This document shows positions 28,243 to 32,966 of a stretch of 64,000 bases of DNA, in pieces (position 1 is the first letter of the stretch; the number at the start of each line of letters is the position of its first letter). Under the pieces are notes generated by a model that was given only the letters and a program-made list of their open reading frames with translations, was not told the DNA's origin and searched no databases. The stretch is from Candidatus Bathyarchaeota archaeon (lineage in GTDB: Archaea > Thermoproteota > Bathyarchaeia > Bathyarchaeales > Bathycorpusculaceae), in contig CAWEPZ010000008.1 in assembly GCA_963811105.1 (NCBI GenBank), positions 54,936-118,935 of the forward strand, written 5' to 3'. The position numbers and the translations under genes were made by a program.

Positions 28243-28320
28243 TGGTGGGCCGAGGCGGATTTGAACTGCCGACCTTTCGATTATCAGTCGAACGCTCCAG
28301 CCGTGCTGAGCTACCGGCCC
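28243..28320 (-). tRNA. tRNA-Ile(GAT), CCA encoded, no intron
   Basis: GGGCCGGTAGCTCAG...TTCGA-CTGATAA-TCGAA...GTTCAAATC...GGCCCACCA cloverleaf. Confidence 0.97.
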
Positions 28321-28346: not shown

Positions 28347-29732
28347 TTATGTTGGTTTATAAGAATAACGCTTAAGGTTTTCAGAGTTACCATAAATGTT
28401 TTTTGTTTCGCCGCTGAATCGTTTGGGTCGTCGATAGAAATGTACTTGAACTTGGTTGAAGGTGATCTCGTCGTATTTTGTCCAGCCGCCTTTTCCAAGA
28501 TTTCGTATTTCTTCAATTGTTGTAGCTGTCGTTTCTTCGTATTCTTTAGGTTCAAACTTCTTCGCGTGAATGTACTTCATTGAGCTTTCAATGCACTTGT
28601 GACGCAGCAACTGCTTAACTATTAGAACGTTGCCATTGGTGTTTTCAGCAATTGTTGTTCCTCCCCAGTGTCGGATGCTTTTGAAGTTAATGTCCAAGAT
28701 TTGAGGTCGTCCAAGTTTAGCTGCAAGCCTTCTGCGGATGTATAGGAAACTGGTTTCAAGTGAAGCATAAGTCGTTGGGAAAATGCGTTTGTCCTTTTTC
28801 GGCAGCCTGTTAAGCATCGTGAGAAGTTCTCCAGAGATTTCGTATTCGTCGGTGTTATGTCCTTTGACTGGATGCGCGATTGTGAACATGTTACCTTTAA
28901 GGTCAATCCACTCAGCAGCAAGAATTTCTCCTGGGTCCGCGTATGTTTCTTTTATGCTTTGTAGGAAGGCAGCCATTCGTTTACTTGTCGTTGAAGCAAT
29001 TAAGGCGTCAATGTCATCTTCGTTAGGCGTTCTGATTATGGGCGCTTCAATATTATACTCAGGTCTTTTCCAACGGATGCCTTCCATATCGCAGAAAGCT
29101 TGGTAAGCGAAAGCAGCAAGATTCTTAGAACTATCTTTCCACTTCTGGATTTTGCCTGTTTTGTCTTCAAAGGTATGTCGTGCAATCCTTGTTTTTACGT
29201 CCTCTGGATCAAGCAGATTTGCGCCATCTTTGACAAGCCTAATCAATTGCTTGAGATAGAGACTTTCTCCGGCTGCGTCAAAATAGTAGTTTTCTCGCTC
29301 CAGGTAAGCCATGAACTTTGTCAGTAAACCTTTAGCGTCTTGAGGTAGTTTCTCGATGTCTCCGGCAACAGTTTTTATTTCCGTTGCAGAGGTCAAATTT
29401 TTCGTCTCCTTAACGCATATTTGACGTTTAGAAAGGAAGGAGACGCCAGTATTTAATGATAATTCCAATTTTTTTTGTAATGGCTTCTCAGAGAAACGAA
29501 ATCCACATTTCCGGCAAATCCAACGCTGAATTACCTCATCTTTGAGGTAGCGAAGGCCATCTCGCCAGGTCTTAGCGGATCCGCAGCTGGGGCAGTTGGG
29601 GATTTGCGAGGCGGCGCCGGCAGTTAGAACTGAAACCGACTTGCCAGTGATATTATTTCCCAGCTGATTGCCAAATATGCTTATAGGAGACGGAATATTG
29701 GCAAAGCCGCCTGTTCGCTCCCCTTCAACCAC
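28347..29732 (-). CDS. Tyrosine recombinase/integrase-fold protein with N-terminal zinc ribbon
   Basis: CPSC...CRKC ribbon; ETYADPGE in place of the box I TGxRxxE, HPVKG, KSIRH and LLRHK...MKY. Confidence 0.88.
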   Translation of the reverse strand: MVEGERTGGFANIPSPISIFGNQLGNNITGKSVSVLTAGAASQIPNCPSCGSAKTWRDGLRYLKDEVIQRWICRKCGFRFSEKPLQKKLELSLNTGVSFLSKRQICVKETKNLTSATEIKTVAGDIEKLPQDAKGLLTKFMAYLERENYYFDAAGESLYLKQLIRLVKDGANLLDPEDVKTRIARHTFEDKTGKIQKWKDSSKNLAAFAYQAFCDMEGIRWKRPEYNIEAPIIRTPNEDDIDALIASTTSKRMAAFLQSIKETYADPGEILAAEWIDLKGNMFTIAHPVKGHNTDEYEISGELLTMLNRLPKKDKRIFPTTYASLETSFLYIRRRLAAKLGRPQILDINFKSIRHWGGTTIAENTNGNVLIVKQLLRHKCIESSMKYIHAKKFEPKEYEETTATTIEEIRNLGKGGWTKYDEITFNQVQVHFYRRPKRFSGETKNIYGNSENLKRYSYKPT

Positions 29733-29977
29733 TAATAATTAACCTCCAGGACCGCTAAATGTACTGTATGTTCAGGTACGGAAGGTGATTCTAGTTCAAC
29801 GAAGACGGCGCCATAATTATCCAGCAAGGTGAAAGGGTACCTTATGCCTTCAATTCTAAGACACACCGCCATTTTACCTGTAAATTCTTCTCTGGGAATA
29901 ACTAGGCAAGGACCCCATACAGGATCCTGGAGCTGAAGATAACCCTGAGCCTTAAGGAAGTCAAGAAAAACCATCAA
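29732..29977 (-). CDS. Hypothetical protein (element operon)
   Basis: Overlaps both neighbours; GGAGG precedes the integrase start. Confidence 0.65.
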   Translation of the reverse strand: MMVFLDFLKAQGYLQLQDPVWGPCLVIPREEFTGKMAVCLRIEGIRYPFTLLDNYGAVFVELESPSVPEHTVHLAVLEVNY

Positions 29978-30168
29978 CCCTTAGCCCCCATTAATGCAAG
30001 CTTAGTTGTTACTTCATCAAAAACTTTAATTGCCCTATTCATAAGGGTAACATATTCTTCTCGATCAGCTTCGGTTTCGAAGTAGATCAGCATTTTCTTA
30101 CGTTTGTTATCTAGGCCGATTAAGTCAACCTCGGCAGGATAAACCAAAGACATTTTTGTTGTACTCAT
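29974..30168 (-). CDS. Hypothetical protein (element operon)
   Basis: GAGG RBS; 4-nt start/stop overlaps at both ends. Confidence 0.65.
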   Translation of the reverse strand: MSTTKMSLVYPAEVDLIGLDNKRKKMLIYFETEADREEYVTLMNRAIKVFDEVTTKLALMGAKG

Positions 30169-30308
30169 GGTGTCTTAACCTCTGCTTTGGCAGCCTCCGA
30201 TAGGGCAGCATCTGCCAGGTAGAGCTTATTTTGCATGCAAGATTCCCAGTAGCGTTTAGATACTAGGCAAACTCCGGGTATTCTGTAGCAGCCACAAGGA
30301 TTAAACAT
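30165..30308 (-). CDS. 47-aa Cys-rich protein (below ORF-track cutoff)
   Basis: MFNPCGCYRIPGVCLVSKRYWESCMQNK...EVKTP*, with GGAGG RBS and ATGA overlap with the next gene. Confidence 0.6.
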   Translation of the reverse strand: MFNPCGCYRIPGVCLVSKRYWESCMQNKLYLADAALSEAAKAEVKTP

Positions 30309-30312
30309 CAAA

Positions 30313-30537
30313 CTACGGCGCCTCCTGGAAGGAACCTTCAGCGATTACTTGGGTAATTTTGGCGCCGGCTTCTAAATCATCAATGCCTAGGTCGTCACAG
30401 TGCTTAGCAAGACCCAGAGGATCATACTGAACGATGCAATTTAATTCACCATAGACGGGAAACGTAAGCACTGTTTTGCCATTTTTAGTTTCTGAAAGTT
30501 TAGTTCGGCAAATAGGGTACCATGCAGAGTTTGGCAA
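30313..30537 (-). CDS. Hypothetical protein (element operon)
   Basis: GGTGA RBS; starts 3 nt after the RHH stop. Confidence 0.6.
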   Translation of the reverse strand: MPNSAWYPICRTKLSETKNGKTVLTFPVYGELNCIVQYDPLGLAKHCDDLGIDDLEAGAKITQVIAEGSFQEAP

Positions 30538-30540
30538 GGA

Positions 30541-30723
30541 TTATTTCACCCGGCATTTTGCAGCTTTTTGGGCTTCTAGTTGCTCCATTCGCATTCTGGC
30601 GGCTTCACTTAGGAAATCGGCGACGCTTCTGTATTCTCGATTGTCCTGTACGAAATGTGTAACTTTGATGTATAGATTTTTGTTTAGACTTACGCCTTTG
30701 AAGTTTTGATTCTTACCTGGCAA
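30541..30723 (-). CDS. Small ribbon-helix-helix (RHH) protein
   Basis: FKGVSL beta-strand, helix, YRSVADFLSEAAR. Confidence 0.85.
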   Translation of the reverse strand: MPGKNQNFKGVSLNKNLYIKVTHFVQDNREYRSVADFLSEAARMRMEQLEAQKAAKCRVK

Positions 30724-30740
30724 TTAATCTTCCTTCTTTT

Positions 30741-30891
30741 GGTGGTACCTATGCTACATAAACCCACTATGCTAAGACTTAATTAATAATATTTGTGGCA
30801 CATTTAAGGGATAAAAACCCCATTGACTAAAAAAAATAAAGCTTCTTTATTAACACAAAGCCACATATATTATATGGCATCTATGCCACAT
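30741..30891. promoter_or_regulatory. Divergent promoter pair with two operator-like palindromes
   Basis: GGTGGT-N6-GCTACA (30741-58) and TATGGC-N6-GCCACA (30873-90). GCCACAWATATTAT occurs on both strands (30786-99 minus, 30860-73 plus). Confidence 0.65.
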
Positions 30892-30922
30892 CAAACCATT
30901 AAAGCAAACAAAGGGGATTAAC

Positions 30923-31306
30923 TTACCAAAAAAAGACTCAGACTACAAAGGAGTCAGCTTAAAAAAAGAATTAATCAAACAAATAGAAGTATTCATCGAC
31001 AACAACCCACAATACAAGAGCATTTCAGACTTCATTCACGAAGCAGCCAGAATTAGAATGGAAGAAATAAACAAGATAAAAATACTCCCACGGTACGAGC
31101 ACTTCAACATTAACGATACTGGTGTAAGAATAACTGATCGTAAAATCGGCATGATAGCGGAAATTTACATCAAACCCCAGGGAATATTTTGTGATATCGA
31201 CAAAAGCAACACTTGTGAACATATAGACTTCGCATTAACAGTACCCGCCATACAAGAAATAATAACAAGAAAAAGAAAAGAAGGCTGGAACCTCCCAGAG
31301 ATCTAA
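30923..31306 (+). CDS. RHH protein with C-terminal Cys/His (SWIM-like) domain; apparent start codon TTA
   Basis: The frame extends upstream of ATG 31058 as LPKKDSDYKGVSLKKELIKQIEVFIDNNPQYKSISDFIHEAARIRMEE, with a GGGGA RBS. The C-terminal part has FCDIDKSNTCEH. Confidence 0.8.
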   Translation, partial: LPKKDSDYKGVSLKKELIKQIEVFIDNNPQYKSISDFIHEAARIRMEEINKIKILPRYEHFNINDTGVRITDRKIGMIAEIYIKPQGIFCDIDKSNTCEHIDFALTVPAIQEIITRKRKEGWNLPEI

Positions 31307-31994: not shown

Positions 31995-32450
31995 TTATTT
32001 GGGCTGTATAGGCGAGGACTTTTTGGAAAGCTCTGCGTATTTCGCACTCCACTCTAACATTTCAGCTTCAAGCCCACGATAATCCATGTAATCGACCAGG
32101 AGCTCTTTGTAAACTTTGGAGCCGGCGATGATCCCTCGCAAACGCAAAACCTCATACTTATCCAAGCCTGGCTTCTCCAAAGCCTTCAAAGCAGCAACCA
32201 AAGTCTTCAAAGTTTCCTCAACACTTGGCAACTCCTCAGGCAATTCGAGCTTTGAAGAACAACAACACTGATTTTTTTGCTGTTGTTGTTCTCTCAACAA
32301 ACCAAACTTTATTAGTTTTTGACGAATACCCTCTTCCGAGTATTTGCCATCAAAACTAGAAGCAAGCACCCTAAGATCAACAGTTCCAGCTCTAAACCAA
32401 CTGGTTAGTTTCTTTTCATCCTCAAGATCCCAAGGCCTACCTTTAACCAA
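31995..32450 (-). CDS. Mobile-element-associated hypothetical protein (HTH/Myb-like N-terminus, coiled C-terminus)
   Basis: KG.PW..EDEKKL start, ELPSVEETLK.L..AL..L..PGLDK.EVLRLR; AGGAG RBS. Confidence 0.7.
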   Translation of the reverse strand: MVKGRPWDLEDEKKLTSWFRAGTVDLRVLASSFDGKYSEEGIRQKLIKFGLLREQQQQKNQCCCSSKLELPEELPSVEETLKTLVAALKALEKPGLDKYEVLRLRGIIAGSKVYKELLVDYMDYRGLEAEMLEWSAKYAELSKKSSPIQPK

Positions 32451-32573: not shown

Positions 32574-32765
32574 ATGAGTCTAACGCAAAGAGAGCGCATA
32601 ATTCTGCAATTAGAAACCAAGGGCTTAAGCGACTACAAGATAGCCCGCAAAATCAACACCGACCCACCCTCCATAACAAGATCAAGAAGAAACGCCCACA
32701 AAAAACTCAAACAAGCCCAAACAGACCTACAATACGCACAACAAATAGGTATAACAATGACTTAA
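32574..32765 (+). CDS. Sigma70-r4/LuxR-like HTH protein
   Basis: LTQRER.IL.L..KGLSDYKIARKI...SITRSR..A.KKL. Confidence 0.8.
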   Translation: MSLTQRERIILQLETKGLSDYKIARKINTDPPSITRSRRNAHKKLKQAQTDLQYAQQIGITMT

Positions 32766-32810
32766 ATTTGTTAACTTATTGCATGTTGAATCTTCTTCTT
32801 AACCTTCTAA

Positions 32811-32966
32811 GCGAAACATCCAATAAGCATAGCTCTATCAAATCGCGTATTAGAGAAAATACGTAAAGACGCTTCAAAACAGAAAAGATCAAGAAGCGAA
32901 ATTGTAGAACTACATTTTGAAACCCTTTTCTTCGAGAACTTGGAATTAAAACCGTCTCGAAACTAA
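32811..32966 (+). pseudogene. CopG-like RHH gene lacking an intact start
   Basis: AKHPISIALSNRVLEKIRKDASKQKRSRSEIVELHF; an in-frame TAA lies immediately upstream. Confidence 0.6.

What the first reader, a model, noticed from the sequence alone, without database searches (positions are those of the whole stretch)
28347..31306. CI/Cro-like genetic switch built from two paralogous RHH proteins heading an integrase operon
Seen in sequence: two divergent genes share the same RHH (FKGVSL..YRSVADFLSEAARMRME vs YKGVSL..YKSISDFIHEAARIRME). The ORF track missed the RHH half of the plus-strand gene. The short 60-aa paralog leads a tightly coupled six-gene operon that ends in the integrase, a Cro-like position. 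The longer paralog has an extra C-terminal C-x7-CxH domain, a CI-like architecture with a possible sensor or oligomerisation domain. The 200-bp spacer is mirror-symmetric: GCCACAWATATTAT occurs on each strand, and downstream of each lies an operator-like site (GTGGTACCTATGCTACAT 30742-59 and ATGGCATCTATGCCACAT 30874-91, 14/18 identical). Inference: this is a bistable on/off switch made from RHH rather than HTH repressors. I do not know of this being described for Bathyarchaeia elements.
Basis: partly seen in the sequence, partly recalled or inferred. Interest (0 to 1): 0.8.

Follow-up and report, generated by a model that had tools for sequence, protein, structure and literature searches.

The report
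Swappable RHH-pair provirus immunity switch
Two back-to-back, related DNA-binding genes and the repeated sites between them recur, and are exchanged as one block, in archaeal proviruses; they likely decide whether the virus stays dormant, much as lambda's CI and Cro do but with a different protein fold, and the copy in this window lies in what is likely a broken provirus remnant.

Summary
A 60-aa RHH gene (30723-30541, -) and an RHH plus C-terminal-domain gene (30923-31306, +) diverge across 199 bp. The pair is conserved: 60 of 80 examined relatives have a divergent short RHH within 300 bp, and 35 of 41 paired loci with enough flank carry an integrase, terminase, portal or capsid gene. In 59 of 59 complete pairs both proteins share a ribbon class. 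Each ribbon type has its own spacer motif; here it is TRGYA-N4-TRCYA at 30743 and 30875. The RHH-spacer-RHH block is swapped between elements whose C-terminal domains stay 85-95% identical. This is the anatomy of a lambdoid immunity region built from RHH proteins. The C-terminal domain (C-x2-[CDH]-x4-C-x-H) had no family or fold match. Corrections: the 14/18 repeat alone is chance-level; the right-hand GCCACA is not conserved; two operon genes are optional; this allele lacks a standard start codon and sits in a roughly 5-kb remnant. Binding, mutual repression and bistability are untested. RHH precedents exist (P22 Mnt/Arc, AFV6 AvtR/gp30, SSV1 F55); nine literature searches showed no description of this module. 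The scan's earlier notes showed no report of this pair.

The parts
30541..30723 (-). Short RHH protein, 60 aa, TTG start, ribbon FKGVSL; first gene of the integrase operon (Cro-like position)
   Evidence: fold inferred from 47% identity to the long protein's RHH domain
30923..31306 (+). Long protein, 127 aa from TTA 30923: RHH (residues about 6-52, ribbon YKGVSL) plus a 74-aa C-terminal domain; candidate maintenance repressor; no standard start codon in this allele before 31058
   Evidence: model pLDDT 93; NikR match Z 6.2, rmsd 1.6, 46 aligned; 11 synonymous and 2 non-synonymous changes against the C6 copy
31082..31303 (+). C-terminal domain: four-strand meander, C90-x2-D93-x4-C98-x-H100 predicted metal site, two helices; cassette exchange breakpoints map to its start (about 31084-31088)
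30743..30756 (.). Candidate operator near the short gene, palindrome TRGYA-N4-TRCYA
   Evidence: strict match at this position in 8 of 8 aligned spacers of this ribbon group
30779..30801 (-). AT-rich TATA-like stretch with an abutting conserved half-site (TRTGGYA on the + strand); inferred promoter of the short-gene operon
   Evidence: promoter role inferred from position, no transcript data
30860..30873 (+).
30875..30888 (.). Candidate operator near the long gene, perfect palindrome TGGCA-N4-TGCCA
   Evidence: ranked first in the whole window by a matrix trained on three other genomes; strict in 7 of 8 spacers, 8 of 8 with one mismatch
30165..30537 (-). Two small ORFs (74 aa and 47 aa) of unknown function; optional insert
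   Evidence: no Pfam or PHROG match
29732..30168 (-). Two small coupled ORFs (64 aa and 81 aa); homologues of the 81-aa ORF lie directly before integrase genes on C6 and C14
28347..29732 (-). Tyrosine integrase, 461 aa, with an N-terminal zinc-ribbon-like motif; last gene of the operon
   Evidence: PHROG 216 E 2e-9; Pfam PF00589 E 0.003, below cut-off
28243..28320 (-). tRNA-Ile(GAT), co-oriented, 26 bp after the integrase stop; likely integration target
   Evidence: a close integrase (82% nt) precedes tRNA-Ile in G586 (L110); no duplicate att found
31995..32450 (-). 151-aa ORF whose homologues lie directly upstream of large terminase genes; candidate small terminase, here without a large terminase
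   Evidence: C6, L049, L127, L137; role inferred from position

Best explanation
This is likely the immunity and lysis-lysogeny control region of a family of archaeal head-tail proviruses, built from two paralogous RHH proteins that are predicted to compete for the same operators. Shown here: the pair's conservation, its position in proviruses, matched ribbons, ribbon-specific spacer motifs and exchange of the block between elements. Inferred mechanism: the long protein, made from a weak promoter, binds TRGYA-N4-TRCYA and keeps the short-gene operon (integrase here; replication or packaging genes in relatives) off, and also limits its own synthesis. Its C-terminal metal-binding domain would receive an inducing signal or add cooperativity. 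When it is inactivated, the short protein is made first, occupies the site over the long gene's promoter and holds the lytic state. Swapping the RHH-spacer-RHH block would create new immunity groups while keeping the same signal-receiving domain. The window copy is a remnant of about 5 kb that has lost portal, capsid, tail and large terminase, and its long gene may be poorly translated.
For: Conservation: 60 of 80 RHH+C-domain loci with at least 600 bp upstream have a divergent short RHH within 300 bp. Context: 30 of 41 paired loci with at least 5 kb on the short side carry integrase, terminase, portal or capsid genes, 19 with a co-oriented integrase within 6 kb; extending 8 of the 11 negatives added 5. 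G439 (L127+L128) has portal, protease, capsid, neck, tape measure, terminase, the pair and an integrase, with the window's ribbon type and palindromes. G302 has a lambda-like order: integrase, long, short, helicase-like gene, portal, capsid. Shared specificity: 59 of 59 complete pairs share ribbon class; identity at the three predicted DNA-contact positions is 0.72 within pairs against 0.37 between pairs (44 pairs after 90% dereplication), while whole-domain identity is 0.46 against 0.36. Long and short proteins do not form two clades (0 of 200 bootstrap trees). Four-fold sites are not elevated within pairs (31% against 27%), so the match is not a recent copy. Motifs follow ribbons in 60 spacers. 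Exchange: C-domains 85-95% identical flank RHH domains 20-43% identical of the other class in three sets. L110 shares the window's integrase (82% nt), tRNA-Ile and C-domain but has the other class of cassette. Ribbons set RHH specificity (PMC3413123, passages).
Against: No binding, transcript or induction data. Because the block moves as a unit, class agreement can come from two old duplications plus linkage; the tree-based test gives only 3 supported independent pairs, 3 of 3 concordant, p 0.25, and the permutation p values ignore kinship. Motifs were read by eye from the same spacers; the independently trained matrix ranked the right site first but the left site was not in its top 8. 20 of 80 long genes have no partner within 300 bp, 8 of 18 such orphans also lie near mobile-element genes, and a solitary paralogue is in 56 of 56 genomes of one family, so the long protein can work without a partner. 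6 of 41 paired loci showed no hallmark in the DNA held. Loci were the best-scoring hits, not a random sample, and are not independent. This allele lacks a standard start codon for the long gene.
Confidence: 0.62

Rival explanations
1. One-way hierarchy as in P22 Mnt/Arc or AFV6 AvtR/gp30: the long protein maintains repression, and the short one only damps its own operon after induction. There is no bistable memory.
For: Long genes without a partner are common. Known RHH systems behave this way (PMC5569661 section 7; PMC2629481 passages). An operator sits just before the short gene in 8 of 8 spacers.
Against: Arc and Mnt have different specificities (reference titles), whereas these pairs keep matched contact residues and have the same palindrome at both promoters, so the short protein would also reach the long gene's promoter.
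Confidence: 0.2
2. The short protein is an antirepressor: it forms mixed RHH dimers with the long protein that carry only one C-terminal domain, and so dissolves repression (TP901-1 MOR-like logic, recalled).
For: RHH ribbons pair across the dimer, so matched ribbons also favour heterodimers; inward-facing ribbon positions co-vary too (excess 0.32 and 0.24).
Against: The largest excess is at the outward-facing positions (0.43 and 0.39). Within class A, helix A shows no excess (p 0.15).
Confidence: 0.1
3. Roles differ from CI/Cro: the long protein activates the short-gene operon from the half-site abutting its promoter, and the short protein is the repressor that maintains dormancy.
For: A conserved half-site lies directly upstream of the short gene's TATA-like stretch; AvtR both activates and represses.
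Against: The short gene is co-transcribed with integrase or packaging genes, which a maintenance repressor would not normally be (inference).
Confidence: 0.06
4. Two unrelated uses of a common RHH family (antitoxin or plasmid copy control) that happen to be adjacent.
For: Structural neighbours include ParD and CopG-type antitoxins.
Against: Fixed divergent geometry in 60 of 80 loci, matched ribbons, ribbon-specific motifs and block exchange; no toxin family matched the window's downstream ORFs.
Confidence: 0.02

Closest known systems
Lambdoid CI/Cro immunity region, including imm434-type swaps (recalled; CI cleavage as summarised in PMC10123103 Introduction)
   Same: Divergent paralogous regulators; short gene heads the early operon; long gene has an extra C-terminal domain; shared multi-site spacer; specificity block exchanged between elements.
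   Different: RHH instead of HTH; archaeal promoters; C-terminal domain is a 74-aa predicted metal-binding domain with no peptidase match; two full palindromes and a half-site rather than three operators.
Phage P22 immI Mnt/Arc (PMC2629481 passages; PMC3413123 passages; divergent layout and Mnt tetramer domain recalled)
   Same: Two paralogous RHH repressors, one longer, in a temperate virus control region.
   Different: Mnt and Arc have different specificities and control an antirepressor as a secondary region; here the ribbons match and the operon leads to integrase, replication or packaging genes.
AFV6 AvtR (gp29) and gp30 (PMC5569661 section 7)
   Same: Archaeal viral RHH regulator binding between its own promoter and that of a second predicted RHH gene.
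   Different: AvtR is a tandem RHH with no metal domain, in a filamentous virus genus; no integrase operon or exchangeable cassette is described in the section read.
SSV1 F55 (PMC5569661 passages; PMC10123103 Introduction)
   Same: RHH repressor controlling archaeal lysogeny.
   Different: Single small repressor stabilised by host RadA; no paralogous partner or C-terminal domain described.
SNJ2 Orf4/7/8, MSTV1 ORF6/7, Tebi-SV1/PV1
   Same: A repressor controls an integrase operon through an operator between promoters.
   Different: Winged-helix repressor with an Orc1/Cdc6 sensor; no RHH pair.

Membership tests
Ribbon-helix-helix superfamily | Beta-strand followed by two helices with RHH geometry | tested here: met
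   Model residues 6-52 align to NikR (Z 6.2, rmsd 1.6, 46 aligned), ParD2 and PutA; RHH_1 hits 14 of 80 family members, best E 5e-8, though not the window proteins themselves
CI/Cro-type switch | Divergent regulator pair with the short gene heading the early operon | tested here: met
CI/Cro-type switch | Both proteins recognise the same operators | tested here: inconclusive
   Matched contact residues and motifs are indirect; independent-pair test p 0.25; binding not measured
CI/Cro-type switch | Opposite affinity order, mutual repression, bistability | not testable with these tools
   needs binding and transcription assays
Lambda CI family | HTH DNA-binding domain | tested here: not met
   the DNA-binding domain is RHH
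Lambda CI family | C-terminal S24 self-cleaving peptidase domain | tested here: not met
   the domain is 74 aa with invariant Cys/His; no Pfam family matched the window domain at E 1
P22 Mnt/Arc immI | Two RHH paralogues controlling an antirepressor gene | tested here: inconclusive
   two RHH paralogues present; downstream small ORFs have no Pfam or PHROG match, so an antirepressor is neither shown nor excluded
SWIM zinc finger (motif recalled) | CxCxnCxH after beta-strands | tested here: inconclusive
   spacing is C-x2-[CDH]-x4-C-x-H; SWIM not among the 25 shown of 112 Pfam families for 125 members; a ZSWIM8 chain appears only at Z 3.1
Intact Caudoviricetes provirus (window copy) | Portal, major capsid and large terminase genes | tested here: not met
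   none found in the window by tblastn or local HMMs; met in relatives G439 and G302
Intact Caudoviricetes provirus (window copy) | Flanking att repeats | tested here: inconclusive
   no tRNA-Ile duplicate found; the contig ends at the window end and the assembly has 15 contigs

The most novel reading that the evidence does not exclude
Proviruses of Bathyarchaeia and ammonia-oxidising archaea independently evolved a full lambda-style bistable switch from RHH proteins, with exchangeable immunity cassettes that recombine at the RHH/C-domain junction. A new zinc-binding domain serves as a shared, protease-free induction sensor, and Nitrosopumilus-type hosts keep the same domain in a conserved chromosomal regulator.
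Probability: 0.3. Interest if true: 0.87.

Novelty: new variant of a known kind. Interest (0 to 1): 0.72.

Why it matters
Exit from lysogeny had been studied in only two archaeal viruses before SNJ2 (PMC10123103 Introduction), and the papers read on Bathyarchaeia viruses do not mention repressors. This module gives a concrete candidate for head-tail proviruses of an abundant sediment lineage, with named proteins, predicted operators and natural cognate/non-cognate controls. It suggests convergent evolution of immunity groups on a different DNA-binding fold. It also defines an uncharacterised metal-binding domain whose chromosomal paralogue is in cultured Nitrosopumilus species, so the sensing question can be tested.

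Tried and rejected
14/18 direct repeat as evidence in itself: chance-level. Mirror symmetry of GCCACA: right arm not conserved. Recent duplication or gene conversion as the cause of matched ribbons: four-fold sites not elevated. att search: no duplicate of tRNA-Ile of 13 bp or more within 80 kb on C8 or 20 bp or more elsewhere, none for its 5' 16-mer in G000 or G586 beyond other single loci. Fold searches of the C-terminal domain alone gave nothing clear: best Z 4.0, no Foldseek hit at E 0.001; this shows neither a new fold nor a difference. ESM Atlas hits were all under 0.9, leads only. No RNA holder was listed. Word-based locus scans found little: 2 loci in genome contigs, 5 in viral contigs. 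A 21-nt operator pattern in metagenomes gave two chance hits in unrelated bacterial-type genes. The sigma-70 scan is not suited to archaeal promoters and was at background. Literature searches listed no paper describing this pair; most subscription papers are outside the library and no supplements were read, so gene tables in PMC10848311, PMC11705971, PMC6563490 and PMC13573593 may annotate members.
Full report
Observation. The window holds a 60-aa ORF at 30723-30541 (-) and a divergent frame open from 30854 to 31306 (+). From the TTA at 30923 it gives 127 aa whose first 49 residues are 47% identical to the short protein. The structure model (pLDDT 93) matches RHH proteins over residues 6-52 (NikR Z 6.2, rmsd 1.6, 46 aligned). 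The short gene heads six tightly coupled ORFs ending in a tyrosine integrase (PHROG 216), 26 bp before a co-oriented tRNA-Ile. The 14/18 repeat is reached by 88 of 500 shuffles and the 13/14 inverted repeat by 2 of 500.

Is the long gene real? Against the second copy on contig C6 it has 11 synonymous and 2 non-synonymous changes, 3 and 0 in the RHH half. The nine listed metagenomic variants inside the gene are all synonymous, though eight are the C6 alleles. Relatives have ATG or TTG at the codon that is TTA here. The C6 allele has an in-frame TTG eight codons upstream, and other cluster members use other upstream starts. This allele has none of these; only ATT, ATA, ATC and TTA are available. 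The full protein is under selection in the lineage, but this copy may be weakly made.

Conservation. The genome has three copies of the pair, on C8, C6 and C12. The family profile matched 80 of 301 genomes of the host family and 96 of 401 of the phylum. I examined the top 30 loci of two searches plus fetched stretches, 93 distinct C-domain loci in all; 82 have an RHH, 80 of them have 600 bp upstream, and 60 of these have a divergent short RHH within 300 bp (61 within 900 bp). Four further pairs lie in genomes of the family that links to Nitrosopumilus (L146, L147, L151, L181), one with ribbons WRPVQL and WKPVQL.

Context. Of 41 paired loci with 5 kb on the short side, 30 carry integrase, terminase, portal or capsid genes, 19 have a co-oriented integrase within 6 kb downstream, and 13 have head-tail genes. 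Extending or rescanning 8 of the 11 negatives more sensitively added 5, giving 35 of 41. G439 has portal, protease, major capsid, neck, tape measure, a 65% homologue of the window's 151-aa ORF, large terminase, an ATPase, the pair, a ParB-like gene and an integrase. The window keeps the integrase operon, the pair and the 151-aa ORF but no portal, capsid or large terminase, and no att duplicate was found. I read it as a provirus remnant of about 5 kb; a natural satellite is not excluded.

Shared specificity. The pairs fall into a ribbon class with S/T/N and one with K/R at the last contact position. All 59 complete pairs agree (26 and 33); 3 truncated pairs were dropped. After 90% dereplication (44 pairs), identity at the three predicted DNA-facing positions is 0.72 within pairs and 0.37 between; these positions were assigned from the NikR alignment and recalled NikR contacts. 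The excess persists within each class and peaks at two outward-facing positions. Long and short domains are interleaved on the tree (at least 4 forced changes). Four-fold sites are near background within pairs (68/216 against 1184/4306). These tests ignore kinship. On a C-domain tree the class changes 10 times, 3 of them forced, and the short gene follows in 3 of 3 supported independent pairs, p 0.25.

Operators. In 60 spacers, TRGYA-N4-TRCYA is in 7 of 7 of the window's group and 1 of 53 others; TTASTAA in 13 of 14 of the xTIKL group and 0 of 46 others; TGANTCA in 17 of 17 of the YTTVRL group and 2 of 43 others; RTGTGGTD in 13 of 13 of the YRGxxL group and 4 of 47 others. I read these motifs by eye from the same spacers, so the within-group counts are partly circular. 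Two checks are not: a matrix from three other genomes ranks 30874 first in the window, though the left site is outside its top 8; and four spacers not used to define the motif have the left palindrome strictly and the right one strictly in three.

Cassette exchange. L047 and L054 are 86% identical over the C-domain and 80% over the downstream operon, but the RHH-spacer-RHH block between does not align. Three sets show C-domains 85-95% identical with RHH domains of the other class. L110 shares the window's integrase (82% nt through tRNA-Ile) and C-domain (69% nt from 31084) but carries the other class; its long gene appears broken at the start. The C6 copy has the window's cassette (95% nt) with an integrase only 36% identical, beside tRNA-Gly. 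In the genus-wide DNA search many hits begin at 31084-31088, the domain junction; higher conservation of the C-domain could also produce this.

C-terminal domain. It is predicted with pLDDT 97 as four strands and two helices, with C90, [CDH]93, C98 and H100 nearly invariant in 125 sequences. No Pfam family or solved fold (best Z 4.0) matched. It resembles a SWIM finger by recalled motif only. It is also fused to other N-terminal domains and is part of a chromosomal gene in 56 of 56 genomes of one family.

Mechanism and comparison. The best reading is a CI/Cro-like immunity region (0.62); a one-way Mnt/Arc- or AvtR-like hierarchy (0.2) and a heterodimer antirepressor (0.1) remain open. It works like a lambdoid switch in anatomy but is not a CI family member. 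What I saw of each paper: PMC5569661 passages and section 7; PMC10123103 abstract and Introduction; passages only of PMC2629481, PMC3413123, PMC10848311, PMC11705971, PMC6563490, PMC13573593, PMC11529989, PMC11375127 and PMC13612827. None of these passages describes this pair; supplements were not read. Lambda imm434 swaps, Mnt's tetramer domain and TP901-1 MOR logic are recalled. The scan's earlier notes gave one look-alike window about a radA-carrying element and nothing on this pair.

Verdict. A real, conserved and exchangeable regulatory cassette, a new variant of a known kind, with function inferred from comparative evidence only. Interest 0.72.

Noticed in passing
L163-L165, L167-L170 (family f38): A solitary chromosomal paralogue of the long protein occurs in 56 of 56 genomes of this family; sources name it a hypothetical protein of Nitrosopumilus. 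It usually lies divergent from a 300-aa protein and near a methyltransferase-like gene (labels inferred from sequence).
   Followed up: partly
L176:19959-20351 (FR725450.1, Pro-Nvie1): An unannotated homologue lies in the flank labelled host sequence, divergent from the terminase operon of the Nitrososphaera provirus; it may belong to the provirus.
   Followed up: partly
P0087, P0098, P0151, L035, L172-L175: The same C-terminal domain is fused to other N-terminal domains, some AbrB-like by eye.
   Followed up: no
window 31995-32450 and G000 contigs C2, C3, C6, C7, C11: The candidate small-terminase ORF gives 23 tblastn rows on 6 contigs, and integrase remnants lie beside several tRNAs, so this genome holds many decayed proviruses.
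   Followed up: partly
G000:C3:42526 and C14:14323: A 22-bp duplicate of the 5' end of tRNA-Asp, whose upstream neighbour is a co-oriented integrase, hints that this integrase family uses the 5' part of tRNA genes as att.
   Followed up: partly
window 32574-32966: A LuxR-type HTH gene (63 aa) and a third small RHH frame follow the remnant; a homologue of the HTH gene lies divergent from the portal gene in G302.
   Followed up: partly
many genomes of families f1 and f2: A conserved frame of about 198 aa carries the same RHH type without the C-terminal domain; possibly a host regulator related to the pair.
   Followed up: no
L042, L043, L044: Proviruses with the pair sit directly beside secY, with the short gene leading to terminase and portal and no integrase nearby.
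   Followed up: no
L153-L157, L159, L160, L162 (family f46): The long protein without a partner lies between a ParB-like-looking gene and an ATPase gene in a fixed order.
   Followed up: no
L008 and L055 (G395): Decay of the cassette: L008 keeps both palindromes but no short gene was found; L055 has a frameshift at the start of the long gene.
   Followed up: partly
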